From a virus, in IMG/VR virus record IMGVR_UViG_3300033056_000001, positions 1 through 64,000 of that record: 64,000 nucleotides of DNA. One strand, 5' to 3'. The notes beneath the pieces were generated by a model that was not told the origin of the DNA, did no database searches, and saw nothing but the letters and a program-made list of their open reading frames with translations. The position numbers were made by a program, and so were the translations under genes. Shown in pieces: positions 1 through 57,519 of this stretch (position 1 is the stretch's first letter; each line of letters opens with the position of its first letter).

Positions 1-1012
1 GAGTTATATTATCGGATTAGATCACGGAAACGGCTGGGTAAAAGCGAAAACTGCATCGAATGAATTAACGCTTCCATCTTATTATGCGAAATTAGAAACA
101 GTTAACGAAGGCTACGGAAACAATAAAATAGAAGTAAAAGAGTACGAAAGTAACATTTCGAAAGGTGAGAAATTCGTCTGGGGCGAAGAAATAAACCGCA
201 TCGACCACGTAGTTCCAACTTACGGCGCGCAAGATCGCTACAAACAAACGCCATACCGTCTGCTTACCGAATTCGCACTCGCAGAAGCAGCGTCTAAAGA
301 AGGTGACGCAATCTCGGACGTAATGGTCGTAACTGGCGTACCGTCAATCGAAAAAGGCACCGACTCAGAAAAAGACCTCATCAACGTAGTGCGCGGCGAC
401 CACCTCGTCAATATCAACGATAAAGGAATCATCTTACGCGTATCAGACGTTAAAGTCCTTCCGCAGCCGGTAGGCGTTGTAATGTCTGAATACCTTGACG
501 CAGACGGCTTCGTAGAGGACGAATCGTTTGAAACGGATAGCGTGGCCGTCATCGACATCGGAACGGGTACAACGGACATCGATCACGTTAAATCGCTCAA
601 ACGTCAGAAAGGCGACTCTGATTCGATTCTGCTCGGCATGAACGATGTTTACCGCCGTGTGGCCGACTGGATCAATTCGCAAAACCCATCGGCGCGCGCG
701 ACGGCCAGCAAAGTCGAAAGTCAGTTCGCGAATGACAGCTACGTAATCTCTAAACGCTCAGTAATCGAAATTGACGACATCAAAGAGCGTTCACTGGACG
801 AAGTGGCGGCCGAGTTAAAGACGGAAATCATCGGACGATGGAAAACGTGGGAACGATTCGACCGCATCTTACTAACTGGCGGCGGCGCGACGCAATTAGG
901 CCAACGCTTACAATCGCTTATTCCTGACGCTGAAATCGTTAAGAGCCCGCAGACGGCCAACGTAGAAGGTTTTTATCGTTATGGTAAATCGCTAGTAGGA
1001 GACGATGAGTAA
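1..1012 (+). CDS. Actin-like DNA segregation ATPase (ParM/Alp family), 5' end truncated by window edge
   Basis: The frame of ORF 323..1012 stays open back to nt 2 (SYIIGLDHGNGWVKAKT...). Actin-fold signatures present: GLDHGNG (phosphate 1), VIDIGTGTTD (phosphate 2), ILLTGGGA (adenosine). Stop overlaps the start of a small RHH gene (TAATG), as in parMR loci. Confidence 0.75.
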   Translation, partial: SYIIGLDHGNGWVKAKTASNELTLPSYYAKLETVNEGYGNNKIEVKEYESNISKGEKFVWGEEINRIDHVVPTYGAQDRYKQTPYRLLTEFALAEAASKEGDAISDVMVVTGVPSIEKGTDSEKDLINVVRGDHLVNINDKGIILRVSDVKVLPQPVGVVMSEYLDADGFVEDESFETDSVAVIDIGTGTTDIDHVKSLKRQKGDSDSILLGMNDVYRRVADWINSQNPSARATASKVESQFANDSYVISKRSVIEIDDIKERSLDEVAAELKTEIIGRWKTWERFDRILLTGGGATQLGQRLQSLIPDAEIVKSPQTANVEGFYRYGKSLVGDDE

Positions 1013-1473: not shown

Positions 1474-1501
1474 CAAAAGAAAAGACGCCGTTTCAGGCGC
1501 C
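1474..1501 (-). terminator. Intrinsic terminator after the replication-relaxation gene
   Basis: Minus strand reads GGCGCC-tgaaac-GGCGTC followed by TTTTCTTTTG. Overlaps the stop codon. Confidence 0.55.
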
Positions 1502-2139
1502 TAACCAATTCGTATAGATATTCCATCGTTCTTAGGTTTCGGCTTCGTGGCCGCCAATAACTCGGATACGTCTTTCGTTTGAATAATACGCACGTACTCG
1601 CTGCTCACGTTGTATTTATGGTCGGCGATAATCCAAACGGCGGGGAATCGTTTTACCTTAAACGGTAAGCACTCACGCCATAGCTCCGACCGTGCGAACG
1701 CCTCATACCTGGCGATTTTCTGCTGCATGACTCTCGCCGTGTACCGCGTATTCTGAACCTCCGCGAAGAAGGCGGAACCGCGCCAGAACATGCAAATGTC
1801 CGGCCGTACATCTACGTTAGGGAATTGCGACTCAACAGCGAAATGTTTCAGATCCTTCTCGCCGTGGCCGCGCAGTTGAAGGTAGAAATCGGTGATTTTA
1901 AGGAAGTGGTCGACTTTTTGTCCGTTGGTTTTAATGCGGGCAGGTTTCGGAAAGTATACGTAAGGCTGACGGTTAGTATCAGCCTCGACATATCCACGAT
2001 CGCGCAGCCGTTTTAATACTTCGTTTGCATGGCGGATAGGATTCTTTGTGTCGGCGAAAAAGAGGGCCGCCAGCTGGTCACGCGTCATTGCGCGGAATTG
2101 TTGAAGCGTAGAGATTATTTCGAGGTCACGTTTTCTCAT
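1501..2139 (-). CDS. Replication-relaxation family protein (wHTH N-terminus)
   Basis: 212 aa. N-terminal pattern RDLEIISTLQQFRAMTRDQLAALFF...LKRLRDRGYV is typical of the Replic_Relax family. Overlaps the upstream FtsK-like gene by 4 nt, a pairing known from Gram-positive plasmids and phages. Confidence 0.65.
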   Translation of the reverse strand: MRKRDLEIISTLQQFRAMTRDQLAALFFADTKNPIRHANEVLKRLRDRGYVEADTNRQPYVYFPKPARIKTNGQKVDHFLKITDFYLQLRGHGEKDLKHFAVESQFPNVDVRPDICMFWRGSAFFAEVQNTRYTARVMQQKIARYEAFARSELWRECLPFKVKRFPAVWIIADHKYNVSSEYVRIIQTKDVSELLAATKPKPKNDGISIRIG

Positions 2140-3347
2140 TCGGATTCATCCTCCCAGTTTTCATCGTCTTGCCCGAAGATATTATCGGTGAGTTTTTTGA
2201 GGTCCGGCTCGGCGGCCGGCGGAGTTGGCGTCACATTCGTCGCAGACTTAGGCGCTCGCCAGTAAACGTTCAAAAGTTCCTTCGCCACGTCTAAATCGAG
2301 GTATGGCGCTTTGAGCTCGGTATTCTCGCCGCGGAAGTCGATTATAAACTGACCGCTGCTTTTAAGCTTCTCGGCGCCTGGCGTTTCGAGTATCTCGGCG
2401 CTAGTTTGATTGCGTACTTTAAAGCCCATACTTACGTCAAGACAATCACGAAGGGTAGTATCGATAACTTTATGCGAAGGGCGCTGCATCGATAGAATGG
2501 CGTAAATTCCAAGCGCACGGCCCATCGCTACCAATTCGATTAGCTTGGCGTTGAGCTCTTTGTCATCGCGCAGCATTACGTATTCGTCGATACATAATAG
2601 AATATAAGGTTTGCGGTGTTCTTTCGGCAGTTTGTCGATGTGGTCAATTCCGAAGACTTCGAGTAGTTTGGTGCGGTCGATCATTTCGGCGTGCAGTTCG
2701 TCAAGAATACGATTGGCGCCGCGTTTGTCGCTTTCGAGTGCTTTCGTATGTTGGATATTACGGAACAGGTGAAACTCCGACCGTTTACAGTCGATGAGGT
2801 ACAACGAAAGCTCTGACGGCTTTTTCGTAAGGATGAGCGTTGTTAGTATAATGCGTAGAATTGAAGACTTACCGGAGCCAGGGACGCCGCCGATGACCGC
2901 ATAAGGATTCGTAACCATATCATACGTAAACCATTTGCCGCGCTTATCTTTGCCGCAGACAATCGGCATTTTCTTGCCGTGGATCTCACGCATGAACTCG
3001 CCGTAGTTATAGTCGATTGTGTTTTGGTTGCTGCGGTTAAATATCGTAAGCGTGAAAACCTTATCTTCGCCGGATAACTCGATGTTGCCACCGAACGACT
3101 GCCGGAATACATACTCGCGCTTACGGAGCTCATCTGGCGAGTATCCCAACGGAATTGAAAACACATACGTAAATGTTTCCGATTCAGTGTCCGGCCGCAT
3201 ATCAAGTAGGCGAGGGTACTGGCGAATTTGCTTGCCGCCGCTGTTTTTATGTGCGATGTAAATGCCGCCTGCATTGAACGCCCGTTTTAACGCTCTACGC
3301 GCCATTCTCAGCGTTTTCTTTTGCGCTAGATAGTTACGTATACTCAT
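2136..3347 (-). CDS. FtsK/SpoIIIE-family DNA translocase ATPase
   Basis: Walker A GGVPGSGKSS, Walker B ILLCIDEY, and the FtsK-type motif GRALGIYAILSMQRPS. Start moved to Met58 of ORF 2136..3518: GGAGG lies 7 nt upstream and an ATGA overlap joins it to the preceding membrane-protein gene. Confidence 0.85.
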   Translation of the reverse strand: MSIRNYLAQKKTLRMARRALKRAFNAGGIYIAHKNSGGKQIRQYPRLLDMRPDTESETFTYVFSIPLGYSPDELRKREYVFRQSFGGNIELSGEDKVFTLTIFNRSNQNTIDYNYGEFMREIHGKKMPIVCGKDKRGKWFTYDMVTNPYAVIGGVPGSGKSSILRIILTTLILTKKPSELSLYLIDCKRSEFHLFRNIQHTKALESDKRGANRILDELHAEMIDRTKLLEVFGIDHIDKLPKEHRKPYILLCIDEYVMLRDDKELNAKLIELVAMGRALGIYAILSMQRPSHKVIDTTLRDCLDVSMGFKVRNQTSAEILETPGAEKLKSSGQFIIDFRGENTELKAPYLDLDVAKELLNVYWRAPKSATNVTPTPPAAEPDLKKLTDNIFGQDDENWEDESE

Positions 3348-3661
3348 CCGACTAACCTCCATAAGAACGCCATTAGAAAGCCGAAGAATGTGACGGGCAT
3401 TAAGACGTTGGCGGCACCGGCGATTAGTTCCGCAGCTTGGGACGCGCCTCGGCTGGCGAAGTGATTTTCGAGAAGGTTGGATATTATCGCGGTCAAGCCG
3501 ACTGCTGATACGAGCCAATATGCGCCTGCAATTTCGGGAGACATGCTGAAAAATCCCGCCCAGGTGAATCCGAAAGAGTAGATCGGTGCGCTAATTTTTC
3601 GTGGCTCATGACGATAGTTTCCAGACATAAAATCGTTGAATTTAATCGTTTGTACTTTCAT
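3344..3661 (-). CDS. Membrane protein, first gene of the FtsK-like operon
   Basis: 105 aa with 2-3 hydrophobic helices (FGFTWAGFFSM, AYWLVSAVGLTAIISNLL, VLMPVTFFGFLMAFLWRLV). GGAGGT RBS. Translationally coupled to the downstream gene. Confidence 0.5.
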   Translation of the reverse strand: MKVQTIKFNDFMSGNYRHEPRKISAPIYSFGFTWAGFFSMSPEIAGAYWLVSAVGLTAIISNLLENHFASRGASQAAELIAGAANVLMPVTFFGFLMAFLWRLVG

Positions 3662-4908: not shown

Positions 4909-6116
4909 TACTTCGCCTCCTTATAGTACCAGCCTTTCTCGTTAAGGAATCGCTTAACTTTAACGAGGTCCAGTCCTCTAGCCGTAATTGTAGCGCTCGG
5001 GTTTCCGCCTTTCGCAAGGTTTAAAGCGCCGTCTAGTCCGATCGACTTCAAGAACGTACGGAACTCCGCTTCCATTGCCGGATTCAAGCCGCCTGTCTTT
5101 AACGTAACTGCGATTGGCTCAACGTCTTTCATTTGGACAAATCCGCCAGGAACCGCCCATGCTGCAGTCGTATATCCGTAAACGCTAAACACCGTGCCTG
5201 CTTTTAACGTTTTAGTCTTTTCGCTAATGTCAGCGTTTTTATATACGCCAGTAGCTACTTTCGCTTTAACTTGAACAGCGTATTTATCGCCAAGAGATGT
5301 TACTTTCGGCATTTCCTTCGCTGGCTCAACTTTCGCAGGTTCAGCCGGTTTAGTTTCGACTGCTTTCGCTTTTGCGTCAATTAAGTCGGCTAGTTTTGCG
5401 ATTGTTTTAGGTCCAGCGATTCCGTCTGCGTCTAAACCGTTCGCTTTTTGGAACGCCTTGATTGCCGCGACTGTTTTAGTGCCAACCACTCCGTCTACAG
5501 TTCCGAGGTCAAAACCAAGCGAAGTTAGTTTCGCCTGTACATCGATTACCGCTTCACCTTTCGAACCTAATTTAACGATAGTGCTTCCGGCTTCAACTTC
5601 GACTTTGATTTCGGAAACGTTTCCGCCTTTAACTTTTGCGATAACTTCCGCTTTGAATTGCGCCCAGCCTGCCGGATCCACAACGTAGAAATGCGGGCAG
5701 TCTTTGCCCGTTACGTCGTAGTGACGAATCATATGCGTAGACGGATCGATTCCGTGACGTTTACACACATCGGCTGCTAGTTCGACCGTGTTAGCGCGCA
5801 TTTTCGTGAAGACGCCGTCGCTGTTTACGCACATTTCGATTCCGATTGAGTTTGCGTTACGGCAGCTTGGATGAACGTATTTCTTAGCGCCAACGTGGTA
5901 GCCGAGTTCATTTTCGGGTAGTGCGCGTACGATTTGCGTACAGTCTACGAGATAGTGAGCGCTAGCAGAACGGTCGGTACTGTTGAAGTAGTTACGGTTA
6001 GCCATTGCGTTTGCGCCTTTACCTTCGTTTGCTGTCCAGTGAATTACGAGATACTTCGGATCTATTTTACGTCCTGGTCGATTATGACCGCTGATTAATT
6101 TTTCAGTGATATTCAT
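4908..6116 (-). CDS. Endolysin: N-acetylmuramoyl-L-alanine amidase (Amidase_2/PGRP) with PG_binding_1 and a C-terminal wall-binding region
   Basis: N-terminus VIHWTANEGKGANA...SAHYLVD...GIEMC...HYDVTGKDCP carries the zinc amidase motifs. The middle GSKGEAVIDVQAKLTSLGFDLGTVDGVVGTKTVAAIKAFQKANGLDADGIAGPKT is a peptidoglycan-binding domain. Confidence 0.9.
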   Translation of the reverse strand: MNITEKLISGHNRPGRKIDPKYLVIHWTANEGKGANAMANRNYFNSTDRSASAHYLVDCTQIVRALPENELGYHVGAKKYVHPSCRNANSIGIEMCVNSDGVFTKMRANTVELAADVCKRHGIDPSTHMIRHYDVTGKDCPHFYVVDPAGWAQFKAEVIAKVKGGNVSEIKVEVEAGSTIVKLGSKGEAVIDVQAKLTSLGFDLGTVDGVVGTKTVAAIKAFQKANGLDADGIAGPKTIAKLADLIDAKAKAVETKPAEPAKVEPAKEMPKVTSLGDKYAVQVKAKVATGVYKNADISEKTKTLKAGTVFSVYGYTTAAWAVPGGFVQMKDVEPIAVTLKTGGLNPAMEAEFRTFLKSIGLDGALNLAKGGNPSATITARGLDLVKVKRFLNEKGWYYKEAK

Positions 6117-29587: not shown

Positions 29588-29618
29588 TTGACTTTCGATT
29601 ATGTATCGTGTTATATTG
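29588..29618 (+). promoter_or_regulatory. Putative promoter of the recombinase gene
   Basis: TTGACT at 29588, and TGtTATATT (extended -10) around 29610..29618. Spacer is 17-19 nt depending on which -10 is chosen. Confidence 0.45.
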
Positions 29619-29648
29619 AATGTAACAAAACGAGATAACGTTACGAAA
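29602..29648. repeat. Left copy of an imperfect direct repeat flanking the recombinase gene (contains a TGTAAC-N14-GTTACG dyad)
   Basis: Sequence TGTATCGTG-TTATATTGAATGTAACAAAACGAGATAACGTTACG. Compare with 30362..30421. Confidence 0.6.
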
Positions 29649-29660
29649 GGGGATTCCGAC

Positions 29661-30203
29661 ATGAACATCGTCCAACCAATCCGTAAGAAAACCGACATTA
29701 ATAAAATGAAAGCTGCGCTAGGTAATCCGCGCGACAAGTTACTGTTTATTTTCGGCATAAATTCAGCGTTAAGGATCTCCGACATACTAAAGCTAAAGGT
29801 TGGCGATGTTCGCGGTAAAGATGCGCTGAAACTGCGCGAAACTAAAACGAAAAAAGCGAAAGACTTCCTGCTGAATGATTCGATTAAGAAGGCGCTGAAG
29901 GAAATGTTACCTACCGACGCTAAAGACGGCGACTGGCTGTTTCCGTCACGTAAAGGCGACAAGGCTATTACGCGAGTTCAGGCGTATCGAGTATTAAACG
30001 CCGCCGCTGAACGTGCTGGCTTGGCGATTGAAATCGGAACACATACGTTAAGGAAGACATTCGCTTACCATGCGTATAAAGCAGGCGTTGATCTTACGTT
30101 GCTAATGTCCGTATTAAACCATTCAAGCCAACGCGAAACGCTTAAATATATCGGAATCGTCCAAGACGACGTTAACAGCGTATTTGCTGGCGTTAATTTA
30201 TAG
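29661..30203 (+). CDS. Minimal (catalytic-domain-only, 180 aa) tyrosine recombinase
   Basis: Catalytic residues are recognisable: ALRISD (Arg), HTLRKTF (His-x-x-Arg), LNHSS (His), ETLKYIG (Tyr). Start moved to Met21 of ORF 29601 (AAAGGGG RBS). About the size of FimB/FimE/RecV-type recombinases. Confidence 0.85.
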   Translation: MNIVQPIRKKTDINKMKAALGNPRDKLLFIFGINSALRISDILKLKVGDVRGKDALKLRETKTKKAKDFLLNDSIKKALKEMLPTDAKDGDWLFPSRKGDKAITRVQAYRVLNAAAERAGLAIEIGTHTLRKTFAYHAYKAGVDLTLLMSVLNHSSQRETLKYIGIVQDDVNSVFAGVNL

Positions 30204-39901: not shown

Positions 39902-40555
39902 CTACCAGTTGAGATTATCCGCATGTTGCGCGAGTTTACCTCGGAAGTTAACACTTAGTTTTACAACGTTGCAATACTCTTCGCCTTCGAAATGTTCAAT
40001 GTACGGAGCGAATCCGCTTTTGCTTTCGTCAGGTAAATCGCATTGTCCGACGTGCCCTTCCATAATAACGGTGCAACTATCGTGAATACGCGTCAGAATC
40101 TTCTTTAAGTCACCTTTCGTAAAGTTCTGGCTTTCCGCAATTACAACCGTTTTATCTTTCAGGTTGATACCGCGAGCGAACGTATGTGACATCGGATAGA
40201 CCCACACATGCCCCGCTTTAAGTGCGTCGACGTTCTCTTCGTTGTAGATTACCTTTTCGGGAACCTCTGCGATTTCTAGTAGCGCATCCTTCAACGGAGT
40301 TAAATATTCGCTTTCCTTTTCCGTTTGATTACCTGGACGGAATCCCATTCGCTTCTCTTCCACTGGCGCAAAGACGTATACGAGTGGCTTTCCGATGATC
40401 TTAGCGCAAGCTACTGCGAGAGTAGTCTTACCGCTTCCGCTTTTCGCATTTACAATCGTAAGCTGCTTATCGAAAATTGAATCGACGTAAGCTCGTTGTT
40501 CATTCGTTAGTTTCGGCTCAAATCCGAATAGTAAGTTGTTTTCCGGTAATGGCAT
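39902..40555 (-). CDS. phoH: PhoH-like ATPase
   Basis: Walker A NAKSGSGKTTLAVA and Walker B VVIAES... PhoH-family length and layout. Confidence 0.8.
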   Translation of the reverse strand: MPLPENNLLFGFEPKLTNEQRAYVDSIFDKQLTIVNAKSGSGKTTLAVACAKIIGKPLVYVFAPVEEKRMGFRPGNQTEKESEYLTPLKDALLEIAEVPEKVIYNEENVDALKAGHVWVYPMSHTFARGINLKDKTVVIAESQNFTKGDLKKILTRIHDSCTVIMEGHVGQCDLPDESKSGFAPYIEHFEGEEYCNVVKLSVNFRGKLAQHADNLNW

Positions 40556-40634
40556 TGCGACCGCCTCCTCGATTGATTGTTTCGCCTTACACTAGATACT
40601 ACGAAGCGTATAATTACTTCGCACAAAATAAACG

Positions 40635-40662
40635 AAAAAAAAAGCCCGACATTTCTGCCGGA
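40635..40662 (-). terminator. Intrinsic terminator after nrdF
   Basis: Minus strand reads CCGGCA-gaaa-TGTCGGG followed by CTTTTTTTTT. Confidence 0.65.
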
Positions 40663-51947: not shown

Positions 51948-52724
51948 TTACTCCGTATTCTCAAAGCAACCGTCGTAGTATTTTTTATAATCATCGACTG
52001 TCATTTTGTTGACCTCAGCCAAATACTCTATAGTAGCGTCAAATCTTTCTTGATCTAAGTTATAGATGAGTTTATTAGACTGAAACCACTCGAAGATGTT
52101 TTTATCTTGTTTGCTTGCGTTTAAATTAGCATTTAAAGGAAGGATGTTTTCAAGAACCGTGCCTCTATGTCCAGTAGCGATGGGGATAACGTGATCTATC
52201 TGTACATCTTCTCGTTTTCCTGAAAGTGCACAAGAGTTATCGAACTTAGCTAATACTTCCTTCCACTGGATATCTGTTAGATTGTTTGGTAATTTTTTAA
52301 CGCGGGCCCTCCGGTTACTATCTTTGGTTCTGATTTTCTCTGGATTCCTGTGACGCCATTCTTGGTGAACTTTTCTATAATGCTCCGGATTCGCTCTTCT
52401 AGCTTGGCGTTTTTGCTCAATGCGCCTTTCGTGGTTAGCTTTATACCAAGCGTCCAATCGATCTGCGTTATCCTCCCTCCACTTTTTTCGATACTCTTTC
52501 ACTTTATCTGTATATCTATAAACGTGAGAGCAGGAGGAACATTCTCCCCTGGTACTAGCGAAAGCTTTTTTGTCTGCCCAAAAATCGTTTATATACGTGA
52601 CTTTATCGCATTTTCTACATACTTTAGCTACTATTTCACCTGAACTATTTTCGTAATAAATAGTTCCTTTTCGATTTTTCTTCTCGATGCAACCTTGCGC
52701 AAGTAATTCTTCACGCAAACCCAT
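51948..52724 (-). CDS. HNH homing endonuclease (paralog of 58988..59686)
   Basis: N-terminal zinc-ribbon Cys pairs, a basic middle, then IDHVIPIATGHRGTVLENILPLNANLNASKQDKN. AT-rich. Confidence 0.8.
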   Translation of the reverse strand: MGLREELLAQGCIEKKNRKGTIYYENSSGEIVAKVCRKCDKVTYINDFWADKKAFASTRGECSSCSHVYRYTDKVKEYRKKWREDNADRLDAWYKANHERRIEQKRQARRANPEHYRKVHQEWRHRNPEKIRTKDSNRRARVKKLPNNLTDIQWKEVLAKFDNSCALSGKREDVQIDHVIPIATGHRGTVLENILPLNANLNASKQDKNIFEWFQSNKLIYNLDQERFDATIEYLAEVNKMTVDDYKKYYDGCFENTE

Positions 52725-52933: not shown

Positions 52934-53437
52934 TTACTCCGCTAAGTAAGCGTGAGCGTTTTGCTTCAACGAATTAAAATCGAATTGTTTGTTTCGGCGT
53001 TCTTCATTTAACGACTGTAATTCGCTGTTTACCGCATCCAGTTTCGTTTGAATTGACGAGATGACTTTCGGAGACTTAGCTCGCAAACTATTTAACGTTA
53101 ATTGCGCTTGTTCGATTGACAGCTGCGCAATTCTTACGGCGAATTCTTTATCTAACTTCTTATGAATACGCTCGGCTTTTGCGATTTCTTTTTGAATCGC
53201 CTTTACTACCTGGCTATTAAACGTAATGTCTTTCGTTTCGATGATCGTAATAACATAGTTACCGTTGACAACAATGCGCTTATCTTTATGAAGGTAATTT
53301 TCGTTACCTTTATCGATTCCAACGAACTTAGCCGCCTGCATGATTTGATTAATCCAGTTTTCCGCCTGCTCCGGTTTAACTCCGAATCTACTTACCGCAC
53401 GTTCGATTGCATGTCGGCGTGGAATATACTTCTTCAT
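52934..53437 (-). CDS. Hypothetical coiled-coil protein
   Basis: 167 aa ORF. Confidence 0.5.
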   Translation of the reverse strand: MKKYIPRRHAIERAVSRFGVKPEQAENWINQIMQAAKFVGIDKGNENYLHKDKRIVVNGNYVITIIETKDITFNSQVVKAIQKEIAKAERIHKKLDKEFAVRIAQLSIEQAQLTLNSLRAKSPKVISSIQTKLDAVNSELQSLNEERRNKQFDFNSLKQNAHAYLAE

Positions 53438-53556
53438 CCGAGTTTCACCGCCTTGATTGTACCTAATTTAATGTAATCCGCTGGATCTTCGTAGGGCTTT
53501 AGTCCACCGTTATATATTTTTTCCACATCTTTCGACAAATTTTTCGGGTTTTTCAT
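53434..53556 (-). CDS. Hypothetical protein (40 aa), not in ORF track
   Basis: GAGGT RBS. MKNPKNLSKDVEKIYNGGLKPYEDPADYIKLGTIKAVKLG. ATGA overlap with the next gene. Confidence 0.4.
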   Translation of the reverse strand: MKNPKNLSKDVEKIYNGGLKPYEDPADYIKLGTIKAVKLG

Positions 53557-53710
53557 CTCAATTTACCTCATTTCCATTGTTTATTTACGAAATATCATAT
53601 AAAATAGCGTTAGAAGTCATAAAAAAGAGGTTTCATTTCTTTTCGAATGACGTATAATAATAATAAGAATACACGTCGGGCCTCACGCCTGAAGTTCCGA
53701 CGTATCGAAA

Positions 53711-54322
53711 TTAAAGCGCAACCAAGTAGTCGGTATGATTGCCGAATTGCTTTGAATCGAATTTGCCTGCCAGCTTTTCGAGTTTGCGTGTAACAGTGTA
53801 ATGATGCATTCCTAAACTTTTCGCGATTGCCAACGCTGAAGATTTAGGTTGTGTCCGGTAAGCTTCAACGATTGCCGTCGTTGTTGCATCCGAATCTTTC
53901 GTAAGGAAGTCGATCAGTTGCCTCTGGTCGGCTTCTTTTATTTCCGTAACTTCTTCCGCCAAGTTGAAGTCGTCTGCGATTTCGAAAGTTGCCGCTTCCG
54001 AATCATCTTCGTTTTGTTGCCACGTTGTTTCTCTTTCGCTTAGTTTCTTTTTCTTACGATAAACATCCGTTCTTGCTCTCGCTACACTGGAAAGGTAAAA
54101 TTTGATGAAGTCCGTTGAGCCGTCGTATTTGCCGATACAACGTAGTAACGTGTCTTCGTAGATTGCGTGAACTTCGTGCTTATCTGCTCGAATCGATTTG
54201 CCGATCTTTTCGAACGCTCTAGCACCTTTCGCAATTACCTCCGCGTAGATTTCGTTGAATACTTCGTCTGAACCAGAAGTTTGATACGCGATTACTAAGC
54301 TATTTAATTTTTTCATTTCCAT
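53711..54322 (-). CDS. Sigma-70-family (ECF/phage-type) sigma factor
   Basis: Region-2-like FNEIYAEV...DFIKFYLSSVARARTDVYRKKKK and region-4 HTH SSALAIAKSLGMHHYTVTRKLEKL. AGGAGGAA RBS. First gene after the aimP-like terminator. Confidence 0.7.
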   Translation of the reverse strand: MEMKKLNSLVIAYQTSGSDEVFNEIYAEVIAKGARAFEKIGKSIRADKHEVHAIYEDTLLRCIGKYDGSTDFIKFYLSSVARARTDVYRKKKKLSERETTWQQNEDDSEAATFEIADDFNLAEEVTEIKEADQRQLIDFLTKDSDATTTAIVEAYRTQPKSSALAIAKSLGMHHYTVTRKLEKLAGKFDSKQFGNHTDYLVAL

Positions 54323-54532
54323 TATTTATTTCCTCCTATCGTTGGTTACAACTGATATTACGAACGTTGTTTTTAGTTCGCACACATTTTCGAAAAACTT
54401 TTTAACTTTCTTTTTTTTTCGAAGTTAGTACGTTCTCGTCCGTACTTGTATTTATATAATACATGCTAATTGAGGATTTTTATGGAAAAGGGCGTGGATT
54501 TTACTTGGTCATTTTAAGTCCTTTTTACACAC

Positions 54533-54560
54533 AAAAAAAAGAGCGCCCAACTAGGCGCTT
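54533..54560 (-). terminator. Strong intrinsic terminator 22 nt after the AimP-like ORF
   Basis: Minus strand reads AAGCGCC-tagttg-GGCGCTC followed by TTTTTTTT. Confidence 0.75.
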
Positions 54561-54581
54561 CAAAAACGTTTATTCCTGGAA

Positions 54582-54683
54582 TCAGCCTCCGCGTGGTACA
54601 TGAGCAGAAGCATCACCGCCGAACAGGATAAGGGCTCCTACAATGATCACCGCAGCAACTACAAATGGTAAATACTTTTTCAT
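54582..54683 (-). CDS. aimP: AimP-like secreted signalling pre-pro-peptide (33 aa), not in ORF track
   Basis: MKKYLPFVVAAVIIVGALILFGGDASAHVPRGG. Basic N-terminus, hydrophobic signal segment, C-terminal ...HVPRGG. The GAGGAGG RBS overlaps the stop of the AimR-like gene. Confidence 0.7.
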   Translation of the reverse strand: MKKYLPFVVAAVIIVGALILFGGDASAHVPRGG

Positions 54684-54697
54684 AAGAAATTTCCTCC

Positions 54698-55885
54698 TCA
54701 TTTAGCGAATTGCCCGTATACCGCCTCTGCCACAGATTTTAGAGTTTCGGATTTTCTTAGCTGTTCTAACGGTAGTTGCGCAAAGAATAAATCACCGACT
54801 TTCAAGAATTGGCTTAACGATTTAAACAGCATATCACTGTCGTTAGTGGCTAACCCTTTGTAATAGAAGTAGTACATCGCTTCTTCCGCTTCACTAACTT
54901 CCTTTTCGATAATCTCTAGGGCTTTACCTTTATCGCCCCATTTTGCCTCATAATGCGCAATTACTACCGGTACGCCTTCCGTAACCTTTACTCCATGGTG
55001 CGCGTCTAAAAACGGGAGGAACCATCGTTCTAACTCGTCAGCAAAACCTTCGTAATTAGCTTCGCGGTAAACATCGATCGCCTGCTTCGTATTTAGCACG
55101 CTCAGCTCGTAGCTTTCGAATGTAAACGACGTTCCTAATAGATAATACGAATTCGCTTTAAATATCGCACAAATATCCTGTGAAATATTTTTTGTTGCGT
55201 GCTCTCTTGCCTTTTCTACGTCTGCCAATACGTATAAAAAGCGTTTCCCTAATAGATCATTGAGCCTTACCTCAAAAGACATTCTGAAAAAGCAATCTTT
55301 CAAATTATACACGTCTTGTTCAATTTCATCACATATCCTAGACATAGTATGTAGATAAGCTGCTGATGTTGAAAGTATTCTATAACATACGTTAGCCTCT
55401 ACTAAGTTTAATAATAGTTTCATCTCACTGTCGTTTGTAGACACTTTTCTGACTTTATCTAACATTTCTTTATTTTTTATTTCTCCAGCTTCGTAGCTGG
55501 ATATCATTCCGTAAAGAGCACCCCAACGTTTTAAATTTTTATTTGTTGAAGTATCAACCTTTACTTTAATATAGTCATTTAAGACATCTAAATTTTTGTT
55601 TAGAGATAAGTACTCCATCGCAGCTTTTATATTTTCAGGTAACTCTAATTTGTATGCCCAATCTATAAGTTGAACATCGTCCTTAAATAAACTTCTTGAT
55701 ATTTTATAGAGTTTACAAAAACCAGGCTCCACTCCTTCATATAGGTATCTTCTCATAGTTCTAACATCTACTTCTGCAATTCTAGCCAAATCCTTAACCG
55801 GTATATTTTCTTCCAAACAATCCAACATTGTTTCAAGTGCGTTCCCGATCAATCGCAACACCCTTTCGAAAGTGCCTGCCAGCAT
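54698..55885 (-). CDS. aimR: AimR-like arbitrium receptor / transcription regulator (N-terminal HTH plus TPR-like helical repeats, RRNPP-type)
   Basis: 395 aa. HTH IPVKDLARIAEVDVRTMRRYL. All-helical body. The C-terminus YYFYYKGL...FLKVGDLFFAQLPLEQLRK resembles SPbeta AimR (from memory). The true start may be an internal TTG near 55852, preceded by GAAAGGG. Confidence 0.8.
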   Translation of the reverse strand: MLAGTFERVLRLIGNALETMLDCLEENIPVKDLARIAEVDVRTMRRYLYEGVEPGFCKLYKISRSLFKDDVQLIDWAYKLELPENIKAAMEYLSLNKNLDVLNDYIKVKVDTSTNKNLKRWGALYGMISSYEAGEIKNKEMLDKVRKVSTNDSEMKLLLNLVEANVCYRILSTSAAYLHTMSRICDEIEQDVYNLKDCFFRMSFEVRLNDLLGKRFLYVLADVEKAREHATKNISQDICAIFKANSYYLLGTSFTFESYELSVLNTKQAIDVYREANYEGFADELERWFLPFLDAHHGVKVTEGVPVVIAHYEAKWGDKGKALEIIEKEVSEAEEAMYYFYYKGLATNDSDMLFKSLSQFLKVGDLFFAQLPLEQLRKSETLKSVAEAVYGQFAK

Positions 55886-55895
55886 TATATTTTTA

Positions 55896-55924
55896 TTGAC
55901 TATGTAAATCTAAGATGTTATGTT
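55896..55924 (+). promoter_or_regulatory. Putative promoter for the plus-strand HTH gene pair
   Basis: TTGACT, 17 nt spacer, TATGTT. Back-to-back with the aimR promoter. Confidence 0.45.
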
Positions 55925-55925
55925 T

Positions 55926-55953
55926 ATTATACACAAAATGTCTGACGAAGCAA
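55926..55953 (-). promoter_or_regulatory. Putative aimR promoter
   Basis: Minus strand reads TTGCTT, 16 nt spacer, TATAAT. Confidence 0.4.
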
Positions 55954-55986
55954 ACATTTTTTTGGATAAAAAAGGAGATAATTATT

Positions 55987-56193
55987 ATGATAAGTTATGA
56001 GCCATTTAAAGAAACACTCAAAGAGAAGAACATAAAAATAAGCCACCTTCGTACTGATAAAGGAGGATTTCTTACTACTGATGTTATTAGACGTATTAAT
56101 AAGGGAATGAACATTGATATCGTTAATATTGAGAAGATTTGTAGAGAGTTAGATGTACCAATAGAAAAAGTTATAAAATTCGTTAAAGAATAA
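55987..56193 (+). CDS. XRE-family HTH regulator (68 aa)
   Basis: Start at MISYEPFK (AAAGGAG RBS). HTH IKISHLRTDKGGFLTTDVIRRINKG. AT-rich. Confidence 0.65.
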   Translation: MISYEPFKETLKEKNIKISHLRTDKGGFLTTDVIRRINKGMNIDIVNIEKICRELDVPIEKVIKFVKE

Positions 56194-56251
56194 TTGGACA
56201 CATTTTCCTGTTTTGTTGTATAGTTAGTCTGTCACCTTTGGATGGAGGTGT

Positions 56252-56476
56252 TTGATGTACGAGGTAGGAAAGTGCAGACTCAAGATACTTCTGAAAGAAC
56301 GTAGGATCACGCAAAACGAATTCGCTAGTATGATGGGTATGTCGAAGCAGCAAATCAACGATTACATAACGGGCCACACAGCCACAATGTCGTTAAAAAC
56401 TGCGAAAAACATCGCACATAAGCTCGACTGCTCCATTGATGATCTATACGAATGGACACGTTCAAAGACGAAGTAA
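56252..56476 (+). CDS. XRE/Cro-CI-family HTH regulator (74 aa)
   Basis: ITQNEFASMMGMSKQQINDYITG is a classic HTH_3. GGAGGTG RBS. Confidence 0.75.
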   Translation: MMYEVGKCRLKILLKERRITQNEFASMMGMSKQQINDYITGHTATMSLKTAKNIAHKLDCSIDDLYEWTRSKTK

Positions 56477-56512
56477 AAGGCGATTCCCACAATCGCCCCT
56501 GCACTTCCGCCT
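56477..56512 (-). terminator. Intrinsic terminator ending the early/replication operon (after primase)
   Basis: Minus strand reads GGGCGATT-gtggg-AATCGCC followed by TTTTACTT. Confidence 0.55.
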
Positions 56513-56541
56513 CATGGTACGCCCAAGAACGTACTCACTCG

Positions 56542-57519
56542 CTAAAAAATACGCAAAGCCCTCACCGCTTTAGCCCCTAGAATTATTTCACGTAAACACT
56601 CCGGTCCTTCTTTCGTTAAAACTTCATTCGCATCTTTACACGTATCAATGTTTGCGACTGCCAGTTCGCAATGCCCACGCATTTTCTCAACGACTTGATC
56701 CCGCAGTTTGCCTCCCGCTTTATCATTATCGCCCAACACGATCAACCGACGAATCGGCGACCGAATGAGTAAATCGCGTTGATAGTCCGTAAAGTTTGCT
56801 CCGCCTAACGCAAGTCCAAGCAGTTTCGCGCCGCTGCTCATCGCCGACATTGCATCGATTTCAGCCTCGGTCACAACCGCCGTAGTCGCTCGCAAGCGAT
56901 AGACGTTATTCAATCCGTATATTAGATTTCGAATCGGTACGGCGCCTTTCTCGTAGTAAAACACCTTGCCGAGTGTCTTACGATACTTCACGTTGGCCAG
57001 TTTTCCGTTCGTTGAGTACCATGGTATCACGACCGTTCTATTAGACGAATCGTAACCGGTGGTCATAAATCGCTGCACCTTTTCCGTTATGCCCCTTCGC
57101 GTTAGATAGTCCGATTCATTTGACGCTGAGTATCTCGACATAAAGGTATCCGGCAGGTACATTTTCGGCTGCGGAAGTGTTAGCTTCGGTAGCACCAACG
57201 CCAACTCGCAATCGGTTGCCTTGCCGTATTTATAAACGAGAAATTCTTCGGCCTCCTCGTAAGTCTCATTGCGAAGAAATGCCAGTAACTTCGCGAAATT
57301 GCCCGAAGACCACTCGGAGTCGTATGCGCCGCTGTCGCCAAAACAGCCGGCGTACTCACCGGTCAAATTTACGAAGAACGAAGGGTTGCCGTCATCTCTA
57401 AAAGGTGAAGCTGCGATTAGTTTGTCGCTGGTCCAACGTGGTCGCGTCCAATTGAAATTTTCAAGCTCGGTTTGTATGTCGATTTCCATCGGCTGACTAC
57501 GTATCTTGATTATACTCAT
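56542..57519 (-). CDS. DNA primase (TOPRIM domain)
   Basis: TOPRIM motifs VVTEAEIDAMS and VLGDNDKAGG. N-terminal degenerate zinc-finger-like SPFRDDGNPSF. AGGGGTGG RBS. Confidence 0.8.
   Translation of the reverse strand: MSIIKIRSQPMEIDIQTELENFNWTRPRWTSDKLIAASPFRDDGNPSFFVNLTGEYAGCFGDSGAYDSEWSSGNFAKLLAFLRNETYEEAEEFLVYKYGKATDCELALVLPKLTLPQPKMYLPDTFMSRYSASNESDYLTRRGITEKVQRFMTTGYDSSNRTVVIPWYSTNGKLANVKYRKTLGKVFYYEKGAVPIRNLIYGLNNVYRLRATTAVVTEAEIDAMSAMSSGAKLLGLALGGANFTDYQRDLLIRSPIRRLIVLGDNDKAGGKLRDQVVEKMRGHCELAVANIDTCKDANEVLTKEGPECLREIILGAKAVRALRIF

What the first reader, a model, noticed from the sequence alone, without database searches (positions are those of the whole stretch)
53711..54581. The arbitrium output position is occupied by a leader plus a phage sigma-factor gene rather than an obvious aimX
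Downstream of the aimP-like ORF I see no convincing aimX-like ORF. Instead there is a strong terminator (54533..54560), then a ~210-nt AT-rich untranslated stretch. This stretch has two GGATTTT(T)A copies 22 bp apart (54474 and 54496) and small dyads (CGAAC..GTTCG around 54361..54380). Next comes a sigma-70-family gene (53711..54322), which heads the next long minus-strand block (SSB-like, DNA polymerase, RNR and so on). The preceding early operon has its own terminator at 56477..56512. The AimR/AimP unit therefore sits exactly between two lytic transcription units. Inference: peptide-free AimR could license sigma-factor expression, by activation or by read-through of the aimP terminator. That would wire quorum sensing directly into a sigma cascade.
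Basis: inference. Interest (0 to 1): 0.75.

Follow-up and report, generated by a model that had tools for sequence, protein, structure and literature searches.

The report
Arbitrium switch wired to phage sigma gene
In this temperate Bacillus-type phage the peptide "arbitrium" quorum-sensing unit is followed not by the usual small aimX gene but by a promoter that appears built for the AimR receptor and reads straight into a sigma-factor-like gene heading the DNA-replication operon. More than 50 related phages share this unreported wiring.

Summary
aimR (Pfam AimR, E=1.6e-54), a 33-aa aimP (…HVPRGG), a strong terminator, an ORF-free ~210-nt stretch and a 203-aa gene lie as described. The 203-aa protein misses Pfam. 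NCBIfam sigma70-ECF (sub-threshold), its homologue family and fold searches all point to a divergent two-domain ECF-like sigma.

86 related loci add the rest. aimR–aimP–terminator–dyad(–P1) is a cassette inserted upstream of a backbone sigma gene, which keeps its own promoter P2 (GYGCGA-N15-17-TAWTAT) even in AimR-less relatives. Just after the aimP terminator sits a long-spaced inverted repeat. Its sequence differs between AimR clades, but its centre lies 47–48 bp from the −10 of a −35-less promoter (P1) in 13 of 14 loci. No terminator or aimX ORF separates P1 from sigma.

Best reading (inferred, ~0.6): peptide-free AimR activates P1 and so transcribes sigma and the early operon. Terminator read-through is disfavoured. 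This is a new variant of arbitrium. Cultured B. subtilis phages 268TH002/007 share the layout, but no paper found discusses it.

A P2-like motif is also embedded in aimR upstream of aimP and held by codon choice (GCG 18/18), which hints at a sigma-driven loop.

The parts
54698..55885 (-). aimR, the arbitrium receptor (HTH plus TPR). The true start codon may lie a little downstream of 55885.
   Evidence: Pfam PF22871, E=1.6e-54. phrog_1728, E=3.5e-56. All 30 representative orthologues next to sigma genes are also Pfam AimR.
54582..54683 (-). aimP pro-peptide, 33 aa: MKKYLPFVVAAVIIVGALILFGGDASAHVPRGG. The predicted mature peptide is the C-terminal ...HVPRGG.
   Evidence: The ORF has a GGAGG Shine-Dalgarno, lies directly after aimR, and has a hydrophobic N-terminus. 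Relatives end in xPRGG, KVGG, IRVGA or PVPGG.
54532..54559 (-). Intrinsic terminator of the aimR-aimP transcript: AGCGCC-TAGTTG-GGCGCT followed by CT8.
   Evidence: Terminator scan. A terminator occupies this position in 55 of 57 AimR-bearing relatives.
54487..54524 (.). Predicted AimR operator: AAAGGAC-N24-GCCCTTT, a 38-bp long-spaced dyad with one mismatch.
   Evidence: It is positionally homologous to perfect dyads in relatives, such as L082 GGACATAAA/TTTATGTCC, L004 AGTAAACA/TGTTTACT and L034 AAGTACAC/GTGTACTT. Its centre lies 47.0 bp from the -10 centre, as in 13 of 14 loci. With that register fixed, only 1.3% of shuffles give such a dyad. Taken alone it is not significant (29% of shuffles). 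It lies in the low-identity cassette of the WIN/L082 comparison.
54450..54465 (-). Core of promoter P1. The -10 TATTAT is at 54461..54456, preceded by TG. There is no usable -35 (TTTCCA lies 21 bp away).
   Evidence: Read from the sequence. Relatives carry a strict extended -10 (TGnTAnnnT) in this position in at least 40 of 57 loci. The block is 94% identical to L082 although the dyad next to it has diverged.
54323..54449 (-). Untranslated leader of the predicted P1 transcript. It holds a 5' hairpin at 54446..54427, an AT-rich palindrome at 54423..54389, promoter P2 and the ribosome-binding site. It has no terminator.
   Evidence: RNA fold -24 kcal/mol, z=-2.56. The hairpin stem is kept in L082, L083 and L005 while the loop differs. 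No Rfam family matches. No terminator-like site on this strand.
54355..54383 (-). Promoter P2, the ancestral promoter of the sigma gene. It reads GTGCGA (54383..54378), a 17-nt spacer, then TAATAT (54360..54355).
   Evidence: G[TC]GCG[AGC] lies within 130 nt upstream of the sigma start codon in 69 loci, usually about 45-72 nt away, including loci that lack AimR. A position weight matrix (PWM) built without the window scores this site 38.4, against a shuffle maximum of 18.
53711..54322 (-). 203-aa divergent ECF-like sigma-70-family protein. It is the first gene of the SSB / DNA-polymerase / ribonucleotide-reductase block.
   Evidence: TIGR02937, E=1.8e-6 but sub-threshold; 34 of 45 homologues hit. 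AlphaFold model pLDDT 85 with two helical domains. Foldseek PDB and BFVD lists are almost all sigma factors. The homologue in phage 268TH002 is annotated as a sigma factor.
55134..55182 (-). P2-like motif embedded in the aimR coding sequence, about 450 nt upstream of aimP. It may be an internal promoter for aimP.
   Evidence: PWM score 19.0. The motif sits at the same position (+658 to +724) in most AimR-bearing loci. The Ala codon there is GCG in 18 of 18 non-redundant genes against a 23% background, and Tyr is TAT in 29 of 33. It is absent from aimR of Waukesha92, BMBtp14, Wbeta, B83, LY4 and BUCT082. It coincides with a local identity peak between WIN and L082.
40588..40636 (-). Second intergenic P2-type promoter-like site. 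It follows a terminator and lies upstream of the PhoH-like gene 39902..40555.
   Evidence: PWM score 21.9, above the shuffle maximum of 18; sequence. It is kept in close relative L103 (32.8). L088 and L089 show only a visually similar sequence that scores below the PWM threshold. It is not found at this position in distant relatives.
55926..55953 (-). Promoter of aimR: TTGCTT-N17-TATAAT. It is divergent from the XRE genes.
   Evidence: Read from the sequence. The region is 94-96% identical to L082.
55987..56476 (+). Two small XRE-type HTH genes (55987/55915..56193 and 56252..56476), divergent from aimR. They are candidate phage repressor and co-regulator.
   Evidence: Pfam HTH_26 and HTH_3. 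The synteny is conserved. Homologues of the 74-aa protein sit directly upstream of sigma, divergently, in several AimR-less relatives.

Best explanation
This is a variant arbitrium switch. The regulated output is not a small aimX gene but the mRNA of a phage sigma-like factor and the early replication operon behind it.

**Proposed mechanism**
- aimR and aimP are transcribed from a consensus sigma-A-type promoter and stop at a strong terminator.
- Peptide-free AimR binds a 38-bp long-spaced dyad just downstream of that terminator (54524..54487).
- The promoter-proximal half-site of the dyad overlaps the -35 position of promoter P1. P1 has a good -10 and no -35, so it should need an activator.
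- AimR switches P1 on. P1 transcripts carry a structured ~125-nt leader and run without any terminator into the 203-aa ECF-like sigma gene and the SSB / DNA-polymerase block. This pushes the phage towards lytic replication.
- When imported AimP peptide (…HVPRGG) accumulates, AimR leaves the DNA and P1 falls silent. Sigma expression then rests on the ancestral promoter P2. P2 either is held down by the phage's XRE repressor or needs sigma itself, and lysogeny is favoured.

**Shown here:** gene identities, the cassette structure, dyad/promoter geometry, conservation, and the absence of a terminator or aimX ORF.

**Inferred:** AimR binding, activation, peptide response, sigma activity and the direction of the phenotype.
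For: 1. **Arbitrium parts.** AimR and aimP are identified, and a strong terminator follows aimP.
2. **Conserved synteny.** The order helicase-primase-[two XRE genes, aimR, aimP]-sigma-SSB-DNA polymerase is kept in 57 AimR-bearing loci. AimR-less relatives have sigma straight after primase or after one XRE gene, so arbitrium is an insertion in front of sigma.
3. **Mosaic boundaries.**
   - WIN and L082 are 80-95% identical in the backbone.
   - They are only 40-65% identical from aimR codon ~10 through aimP, the terminator and the dyad.
   - Identity returns to 78-94% exactly at the P1 core.
   - In L039 versus L043 the boundary falls between P1 and P2.
4. **Enriched dyads.** Perfect long-spaced inverted repeats are enriched just after the terminator: 6 of 27 non-redundant loci have arms of 7 bp or more, against a shuffle mean of 0.56 and a maximum of 3.
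   - L031 shows a symmetric change in both half-sites, GGAC/GTCC to GTAC/GTAC.
   - Half-site types track the AimR recognition-helix types.
5. **Fixed geometry.** The dyad centre lies 47-48 bp from the -10 centre in 13 of 14 loci with unrelated half-site sequences, including the window. The window's imperfect dyad in that register arises in 1.3% of shuffles.
6. **Match to published operators.** Published AimR operators are 6-bp inverted repeats 25 bp apart, downstream of aimP (PMC6458997).
7. **Promoter form.** An extended -10 without a -35 is found in at least 40 of 57 loci.
8. **Clear path to sigma.** There is no terminator and no aimX-size ORF between P1 and sigma. In many relatives P1 and P2 are only 35-65 nt apart.
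9. **Sigma-like nature of the 203-aa protein**.
Against: - Nothing here is experimental.
- The window's own dyad is imperfect and not significant without the family register.
- P1 is called from a -10 only. The TATTATATAA tract also reads as TATAAT on the other strand.
- P2 gives sigma an AimR-independent route, so the weight of P1 is unknown.
- The sigma assignment rests on sub-threshold sequence scores and on fold hits with E values of 5e-3 or worse and TM about 0.3-0.4.
- In one pair (L019/L022) aimR diverged while the whole intergenic region stayed identical, so the cassette boundary is not universal.
- The host is unknown because the window is a metagenome contig.
Confidence: 0.6

Rival explanations
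1. AimR does control P1, but the functional output is the leader RNA itself. It would be an aimX-like riboregulator, as proposed for SPbeta. The sigma gene would be expressed essentially from its own promoter P2, independently of arbitrium.
For: The leader is structured (z=-2.56) and 80-94% conserved between WIN and L082. P2 is ancestral and present without AimR. Kabel et al. state that SPbeta aimX seems to act as an RNA.
Against: No terminator ends a short RNA before sigma. In many relatives P1 and P2 are only 35-65 nt apart, which leaves almost no leader-specific sequence. Leader hairpins are not conserved beyond the closest relatives. No Rfam family matches.
Confidence: 0.1
2. The 203-aa protein is not an RNA-polymerase sigma subunit. 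It would be another two-domain helix-turn-helix regulator, for example a Cro/AimL-like early regulator or an antirepressor. In that case arbitrium would gate an ordinary early regulator and there would be no sigma cascade.
For: No Pfam hit for the window protein. TIGR02937 is below its cut-off. Family members also hit MarR/IclR-type winged HTH models weakly. Foldseek E-values are weak, with high rmsd.
Against: Top-50 lists in both PDB and BFVD are almost exclusively sigma factors aligned over both domains. 34 of 45 homologues hit sigma70-ECF, and two hit Sigma70_r2 at 5.5e-8. Depositors annotated a homologue in phage 268TH002 as a sigma factor; the genome announcement says functions were assigned by BLASTp or HHpred. 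The profile hits RpoE and SigK in the PDB.
Confidence: 0.15
3. Sigma is expressed by read-through or antitermination of the aimP terminator, so it forms one operon with aimR-aimP. The dyad and P1 would be irrelevant or serve another purpose.
For: No experiment excludes leaky termination.
Against: The terminator is strong (7-bp GC-rich stem plus T8) and conserved in 55 of 57 loci. The dyad lies downstream of it, where a DNA-binding protein cannot prevent hairpin formation. A conserved extended -10 promoter follows at fixed distance.
Confidence: 0.05
4. This rival concerns the nature of P2. P2 would be a sigma-A promoter repressed by the phage XRE repressor, like the cI/cro arrangement. AimR-driven P1 would simply be a repressor-insensitive bypass promoter. 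There would be no sigma autoregulation.
For: In AimR-less relatives a homologue of the 74-aa XRE gene is divergent from sigma across about 100-150 bp, a classic switch-region layout. P2 has an A-tract and a near-consensus -10.
Against: The GYGCGA element is kept in relatives that have neither an XRE gene nor AimR upstream (L007, L066, L073). The same motif is embedded in aimR under codon-level constraint, and it recurs upstream of the PhoH-like gene. Both points fit a dedicated promoter class better than an operator. A search for shared operator words was inconclusive.
Confidence: 0.3

Closest known systems
SPbeta/phi3T arbitrium (AimR-AimP-AimX)
   Same: An AimR HTH-TPR receptor with aimP immediately downstream. 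After aimP comes a long-spaced inverted-repeat operator, then an AimR-dependent promoter (PMC6458997). The predicted peptide is of the xPRGx type; SPbeta's is GMPRGA.
   Different: There is no aimX ORF or short aimX RNA. The regulated transcript is the mRNA of a sigma-like gene plus replication genes. The phage is about 66 kb and unrelated to SPbeta (no megablast match). The window's dyad arms are AAAGGAC/GCCCTTT with a 24-bp spacer, and the wider family shows 14-24 bp.
Extended arbitrium module aimR-aimP-aimX / aimC / aimL (phi106, Waukesha92, Wbeta, BMBtp14; Kabel et al., bioRxiv 10.1101/2025.11.23.689978)
   Same: The logic is the same: AimR output ultimately turns on an early lytic operon that carries replication genes. 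Small XRE-type HTH genes belong to the module.
   Different: In the extended module a 29-80-aa AimX antirepressor lies downstream of aimP. It is followed by a convergent aimC and a divergent aimL; I saw this layout in Waukesha92, BMBtp14, B83 and LY4. Here the HTH genes lie upstream of aimR, nothing convergent lies downstream, no AimX ORF exists, and the AimR-facing promoter reads directly into the early operon.
Temperate Bacillus subtilis phages 268TH002/268TH007 (and phi18-2)
   Same: 268TH002 has the same layout: primase, two HTH genes, AimR, sigma factor, SSB, DNA polymerase. It also has aimP (...NAIGG), a terminator, the dyad GAACAA-N18-TTGTTC and the extended -10 TGCTAATAT 48 bp from the dyad centre.
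   Different: Its sigma is only about 29% identical and its AimR about 16% identical to those of the window. The genome announcement does not mention arbitrium or the AimR-sigma adjacency. Its aimR lacks the internal P2-like motif.
Streptococcal ComRS-SigX (ComX) competence control (from my own knowledge, not tested here)
   Same: An RRNPP-family cytoplasmic peptide receptor directly controls the promoter of an alternative sigma factor gene. The peptide gene belongs to the same circuit.
   Different: ComRS is cellular, not viral. There the peptide activates the receptor, whereas AimP is expected to inactivate AimR. The sigma family and the biological output (competence) also differ.
Phage sigma cascades (SPO1 gp28, gp33/34) and autoregulated ECF sigma factors (from my own knowledge)
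   Same: A phage-encoded sigma-70-family protein sits at the head of a temporal gene block. There may be an autoregulated own promoter (P2).
   Different: Those cascades belong to virulent phages and are not gated by a quorum-sensing receptor. Whether this protein redirects RNA polymerase is untested.

Membership tests
Arbitrium communication system | AimR receptor: N-terminal HTH plus TPR peptide-binding domain | tested here: met
   Pfam PF22871, E=1.6e-54, covering residues 78-378. phrog_1728, E=3.5e-56.
Arbitrium communication system | aimP: a short secreted pro-peptide gene immediately downstream of aimR, with the mature peptide at the C-terminus | tested here: met
   A 33-aa ORF with a Shine-Dalgarno, a basic and hydrophobic N-terminus, and the C-terminus HVPRGG. 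Secretion and processing were not tested.
Arbitrium communication system | AimR operator: long-spaced inverted repeat downstream of aimP | tested here: inconclusive
   The window has AAAGGAC-N24-GCCCTTT with one mismatch. It is not significant alone but reaches 1.3% of shuffles in the family register. Relatives have perfect dyads at the same place and register. Binding was not tested.
Arbitrium communication system | aimX: a small AimR-activated gene or RNA downstream of aimP | tested here: not met
   No ORF of 25 aa or more, no terminator-bounded short transcript and no Rfam hit between aimP and the sigma gene. The downstream gene is a 203-aa sigma-like protein.
Arbitrium communication system | The peptide releases AimR from DNA and shifts the lysis/lysogeny decision | not testable with these tools
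   This needs EMSA with synthetic peptide and infection assays.
Extended arbitrium module (aimX/aimC/aimL) | A small HTH gene (aimC) immediately downstream of aimP/aimX on the opposite strand, with a divergent aimL | tested here: not met
   All genes downstream of aimP are co-directional: sigma, a 40-aa ORF, a 167-aa ORF and so on. The two HTH genes lie upstream of aimR. Compare Waukesha92, B83 and LY4.
SPbeta-like arbitrium architecture | SPbeta-type genome with sro/yop genes downstream of aimX | tested here: not met
   No nucleotide match to any INPHARED phage. The downstream genes are sigma-like, SSB-like, a PDDEXK nuclease and DNA polymerase A. sro homologues were not searched by profile.
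Sigma-70 family (group 4 / ECF-like) | Sigma-2 and sigma-4 domains recognisable by curated profiles | tested here: inconclusive
   Pfam gives none. TIGR02937 gives E=1.8e-6 over residues 38-187 but 27.6 bits, below the 42.9 cut-off. 34 of 45 homologues match, and two carry Sigma70_r2.
Sigma-70 family (group 4 / ECF-like) | Two-domain helical sigma fold | tested here: met
   AlphaFold2 model pLDDT 85, with helical N- and C-terminal domains joined by a disordered linker. The Foldseek PDB top 50 and most named BFVD top-50 hits are sigma factors; best PDB E is 4.7e-3, and the best BFVD sigma-annotated hit is E=4.3e-3. TM scores are low because of domain orientation.
Sigma-70 family (group 4 / ECF-like) | Binds core RNA polymerase and directs promoter-specific initiation | not testable with these tools
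   A candidate cognate promoter class (GYGCGA-N15-17-TAWTAT) was defined, but recognition by this protein is an inference.

The most novel reading that the evidence does not exclude
AimR-activated P1 is only the trigger of a self-amplifying sigma loop.

- The unusual promoter class GYGCGA-N15-17-TAWTAT (P2) would be the cognate promoter of this phage ECF-like sigma factor.
- It sits in front of the sigma gene itself, which would give positive feedback and lytic commitment.
- It sits in front of the PhoH-led module, which would be the next temporal class.
- It is hidden inside the aimR coding sequence about 450-500 nt upstream of aimP, held there by synonymous-codon choice. Production of the quorum peptide would then be sigma-driven.

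Together these would make a bistable, quorum-gated sigma cascade with built-in delayed negative feedback. That would be a fourth and mechanistically distinct arbitrium output.
Probability: 0.3. Interest if true: 0.8.

Novelty: new variant of a known kind. Interest (0 to 1): 0.62.

Why it matters
How arbitrium turns a peptide signal into lysis or lysogeny is the open part of the system. A 2025 preprint lists three unrelated AimX mechanisms and leaves about 20% of systems unclassified.

This family of at least 57 loci would add a fourth design. It spans Bacillus, Neobacillus, Cytobacillus and related hosts. In it there is no AimX intermediary: the receptor appears to sit directly on the promoter of an alternative sigma-like factor and the replication operon.

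The design also shows arbitrium behaving as a portable cassette of receptor, peptide, terminator and operator (plus P1 in one pair). The cassette plugs in upstream of an existing early promoter.

The idea can be tested now, because cultured B. subtilis phages 268TH002/007 share the layout, and phi18-2 carries a related sigma-like gene. If the embedded P2-like motif in aimR is a real promoter, it is also a clear case of regulatory DNA maintained inside a coding sequence by codon choice.

Tried and rejected
- **Megablast of the locus against INPHARED:** no match.
- **Pfam on the 203-aa protein:** nothing at E<=0.01; at E<=10 only two chance-level hits, eIF3_N and HTH_50.
- **Rfam on 53400..56700:** only a SAM-III hit at 19 bits against a 45-bit gathering score, E=0.67. 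Rejected as chance.
the distal copy lies in the dyad spacer and is not kept in L082 or L083. The proximal copy belongs to the conserved P1 core block. Not favoured.
- **CGAAC-N10-GTTCG as a LexA (Cheo) box:** the spacing is wrong, and a Cheo-box search of the window gives no more hits than chance and none at the promoters.
- **The 20-aa ORF 54464..54402 as aimX:** it has no Shine-Dalgarno, starts in the -10 and is lost in L005.
- **Dyad significance in the window alone:** 29% of shuffles match it. It is accepted only with the family register.
- **Plain GTGCGAAC word search:** not enriched. It was replaced by a position weight matrix (PWM) scan.
- **Search for repressor operator words shared between the leader and the XRE/aimR promoter regions:** a few AAAATGTNTG-like matches near chance level. 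Inconclusive.
- **P2-like site upstream of PhoH in relatives:** scored only in close relative L103. More distant relatives have weaker hits further upstream or none.
- **Profile search of PDB sequences:** the top hits were annexin and Z-alpha (chance). Sigma factors appeared only at E 0.01-0.4.
Full report
**1. What is in the window**

Read on the minus strand, the region runs as follows.
- The primase gene (57519..56542) comes first, then a hairpin with a weak T tract (56499..56471).
- Two small XRE-type HTH genes lie on the opposite strand (55987/55915..56193 and 56252..56476).
- aimR follows (55885..54698), then a 33-aa aimP (54683..54582, MKKYL…AHVPRGG).
- After aimP comes a strong terminator (stem 54559..54542 plus T8).
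- An ORF-free stretch of about 210 nt follows, then a 203-aa ORF (54322..53711).

AimR is unambiguous: Pfam PF22871, E=1.6e-54.

The only minus-strand ORF in the gap is 20 aa. It has no Shine-Dalgarno, starts inside the predicted -10, and is not kept in a relative.

The window is a metagenome contig of about 66 kb. It has no nucleotide match among 50,697 deposited phages. It carries partition, Rep, FtsK-like and tyrosine-recombinase genes, so it is a temperate or plasmid-like phage.

**2. Is the 203-aa protein a sigma factor?**

Pfam is silent, and PHROGs gives only a sigma family at E=0.049. Several independent lines nevertheless converge.
- NCBIfam TIGR02937 (sigma70-ECF) matches residues 38-187 at E=1.8e-6. 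That is 27.6 bits, below the 42.9 cut-off. It also matches 34 of 45 family members.
- Two distant members carry Pfam Sigma70_r2 at 5.5e-8.
- A family profile finds RpoE and SigK among solved structures at E 0.01-0.06.
- An AlphaFold2 model (pLDDT 85) shows two helical domains joined by a disordered linker.
- Foldseek returns sigma factors almost exclusively. In the PDB these are sigma-32, SigH, SigB and ECF SigL/SigH/SigE. In BFVD they are phage RpoE, SigK and SigF-like proteins. E-values are only 5e-3 to 1, and TM scores are low because of domain orientation.
- The depositors of B. subtilis phage 268TH002 annotated the 29%-identical homologue as 'RNA polymerase sigma factor'. Their announcement says functions were assigned by BLASTp or HHpred.

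I accept 'divergent ECF-like sigma-70-family protein' at about 0.8. Its activity is untested.

**3. The family and the cassette**

The 203-aa protein has more than 120 homologues. Many lie on 55-70-kb viral contigs or in chromosomes of Neobacillus, Cytobacillus, Mesobacillus, Bacillus, Paenibacillus and Brevibacillus.

I fetched 80 IMG/VR loci, four close relatives and two isolates.
- Synteny is conserved: helicase, primase, [two XRE genes, aimR, aimP], sigma, 40-aa ORF, 167-aa ORF, SSB-like, DNA polymerase.
- Fifty-seven loci have an AimR-sized gene within 460 nt upstream of sigma. All 30 representatives tested are Pfam AimR.
- Relatives without AimR have sigma directly after primase, or divergent from a single XRE gene.

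The sigma gene is therefore a backbone gene, and arbitrium is an insertion in front of it.

A sliding comparison with the closest full relative, L082, makes the cassette visible.
- Primase, the XRE genes and the aimR promoter are 80-96% identical.
- From about codon 10 of aimR through aimP, the terminator and the next ~45 nt, identity is only 40-65%.
- Identity returns to 78-94% at 54506 and stays there through the leader and sigma.

In another pair, L039/L043, the boundary falls between P1 and P2. In L019/L022 only aimR/aimP diverged.

**4. The control region**

Across the family the order after aimP is terminator (55 of 57 loci), inverted repeat, then an extended -10 promoter with no -35. 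The strict form TGnTAnnnT occurs in at least 40 of 57 loci, mostly 68-80 nt after the terminator (range 55-97). Then comes P2 (52 of 57).

The inverted repeats have long spacers, like the published AimR operators. Those are SPbeta ATCACT-N25-AGTGAT and phi3T ATGTTC-N25-GAACAT, both downstream of aimP (PMC6458997).

Examples from this family:
- L082: GGACATAAA-N14-TTTATGTCC
- L004: AGTAAACA-N20-TGTTTACT
- L020: TTGAAC-N21-GTTCAA
- L034: AAGTACAC-N22-GTGTACTT
- 268TH002: GAACAA-N18-TTGTTC

Four points argue that these dyads are AimR operators.
- Perfect repeats are enriched. Six of 27 non-redundant loci have arms of 7 bp or more, against a shuffle mean of 0.56 and a maximum of 3 in 300.
- Half-site types follow the AimR recognition-helix types.
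- L031 changes both half-sites symmetrically.
- The dyad centre lies 47.0-48.0 bp from the centre of the -10 hexamer in 13 of 14 loci whose half-sites are unrelated in sequence. The exception, L031, also fits if TACAAT is taken as its -10; that re-reading was done by eye.

This geometry puts the proximal half-site at about -41, the classic position for an activator that replaces a missing -35.

The window's own dyad is AAAGGAC-N24-GCCCTTT (54524..54487). It is imperfect and not significant alone (29% of shuffles). It does lie in exactly this register (47.0), and with the register fixed only 1.3% of shuffles match.

P1 in the window is TG-TATTAT (54461..54456) with no -35. Its transcript would begin with a conserved hairpin (54446..54427) and fold with z=-2.56. 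It meets no terminator before the sigma start codon.

**5. The second promoter, P2**

These two elements, preceded by an A-tract, form a conserved unit.

G[TC]GCG[AGC] occurs within 130 nt upstream of the sigma start codon in 69 loci, usually 45-72 nt away, including AimR-less ones. Sigma therefore has its own ancestral promoter, and AimR-P1 is an added upstream input.

A position weight matrix (PWM) built without the window scores this site at 38.4. Only two other places in the 64 kb exceed the shuffle maximum of 18.
- 40588..40636 scores 21.9. It lies after a terminator, upstream of the PhoH-like gene. It is kept in close relative L103 (32.8); L088 and L089 have a similar-looking sequence that scores below threshold.
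- 55134..55182 scores 19.0 and lies inside aimR.

The aimR-internal site recurs at +658 to +724 of aimR in most AimR-bearing loci. It overlaps a conserved protein motif, (I)CA…YY..G.S, but protein constraint does not explain the DNA.
- The Ala codon is GCG in 18 of 18 non-redundant genes, against 23% GCG usage overall (binomial 3.6e-12; not corrected for phylogenetic relatedness).
- Tyr is TAT in 29 of 33, against 61%.
- The motif is absent from aimR of six canonical arbitrium phages that lack this sigma.

This suggests a promoter class tied to this phage family. Its sigma is a candidate reader of that class, which would give autoregulation and sigma-driven aimP. I rate that at about 0.3-0.5. 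The alternative is a sigma-A promoter under XRE repression, with P1 as a bypass.

**6. Comparison with what is known**

Kabel et al. (bioRxiv 10.1101/2025.11.23.689978) sort arbitrium loci of the genus Bacillus into three groups.
- SPbeta-like: about 4%.
- 'Extended': aimR-aimP-aimX with a convergent aimC and a divergent aimL, about 75%.
- Other or generic.

They name three AimX mechanisms: an RNA, a MazE-like antitoxin and an antirepressor. Sigma factors are not mentioned.

I checked the extended layout directly in Waukesha92, BMBtp14, B83 and LY4. The present layout fails its defining feature, because no convergent HTH gene lies downstream. It also lacks aimX.

Full-text searches found no paper that links arbitrium output to a sigma factor. 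The announcement of 268TH002/007 mentions neither arbitrium nor the sigma gene, although the GenBank record annotates AimR next to a sigma factor.

From my own knowledge, the nearest functional analogue is streptococcal ComRS-SigX. There an RRNPP receptor directly controls an alternative sigma gene, but in a cell rather than a phage and with the opposite sign of peptide action.

**7. Verdict**

Activation of a promoter reading into the sigma gene is the best-supported mechanism (about 0.6).
- Terminator read-through is unlikely.
- Sigma also has an AimR-independent promoter.
- The sigma activity and any cascade remain to be shown.
- This is a new variant of a known kind. It is widespread and experimentally accessible.

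Noticed in passing
window 55134..55182 (-), inside aimR: A P2-type promoter-like motif (TTTGTGCGA-N16-CGTATTAT) is embedded in the aimR coding sequence about 450 nt upstream of aimP. The same motif sits at the same codon position in most sigma-linked aimR genes. Its Ala codon is GCG in 18 of 18 genes against a 23% background. The motif is absent from canonical aimR genes.
   Followed up: partly
window 40588..40636 (-), upstream of the PhoH-like gene 39902..40555: A second intergenic P2-type site lies right after a terminator. Its internal dyad is CGAAG…CTTCG where the sigma copy has CGAAC…GTTCG, a symmetric double change. It scores in close relative L103; L088 and L089 look similar by eye but fall below the PWM threshold.
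   Followed up: partly
L082 5616-5744, L083 1788-1916, L031 5650-5778, L005 about 5633-5760: In the closest relatives the aimP product does not end at the xPRGG motif. It carries a C-terminal extension (…DPRGGFIFFNK, …LPRGGFIFTK, …DPRGGIIILDTLMQ). The mature peptide would then need cleavage on both sides, unlike canonical C-terminal arbitrium peptides. The window's aimP ends at PRGG.
   Followed up: no
window 323..1012 (+), 1501..2139 (-), 2136..3518 (-), 29601..30203 (+): The window carries a ParA-like partition protein, a replication initiator, an FtsK/SpoIIIE-like translocase and a short tyrosine recombinase. The phage may persist as a plasmid prophage or use unusual integration. Relatives occur both on roughly 60-kb contigs and inside chromosomes.
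   Followed up: no
window 51948..52724 (-): An HNH / endonuclease VII-like gene sits between the 167-aa ORF and the SSB-like gene. In relatives it is absent from this position or found elsewhere, for example next to the helicase in L004 and L013. It looks like a mobile homing-type insertion.
   Followed up: no
window 53557..53710 (-), between the sigma gene and the 40-aa ORF: This 154-nt intergenic region is 78-90% identical to L082. It contains a long hairpin (ACGTCGG…CCGACGT) and AT-rich promoter-like sequence. The sigma gene may therefore be partly insulated from the genes behind it.
   Followed up: no
window 55926..55960 (-), aimR promoter: A 10-bp-arm palindrome, AAAATGTTTG-N6-CAGACATTTT, overlaps the -35 of the aimR promoter. 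Similar half-sites lie at the promoter of the 74-aa XRE gene (56196..56208) and just upstream of the P2 -35. These are possible repressor operators, but the matches are near chance level.
   Followed up: partly
L034-L060 (B. cereus-group-like relatives): These loci have 405-aa AimR proteins whose aimP overlaps the 3' end of aimR. Their mature-peptide-like ends are …KVGG or …RPGG. Many alleles share one backbone, which would make a good natural series for specificity swaps.
   Followed up: no
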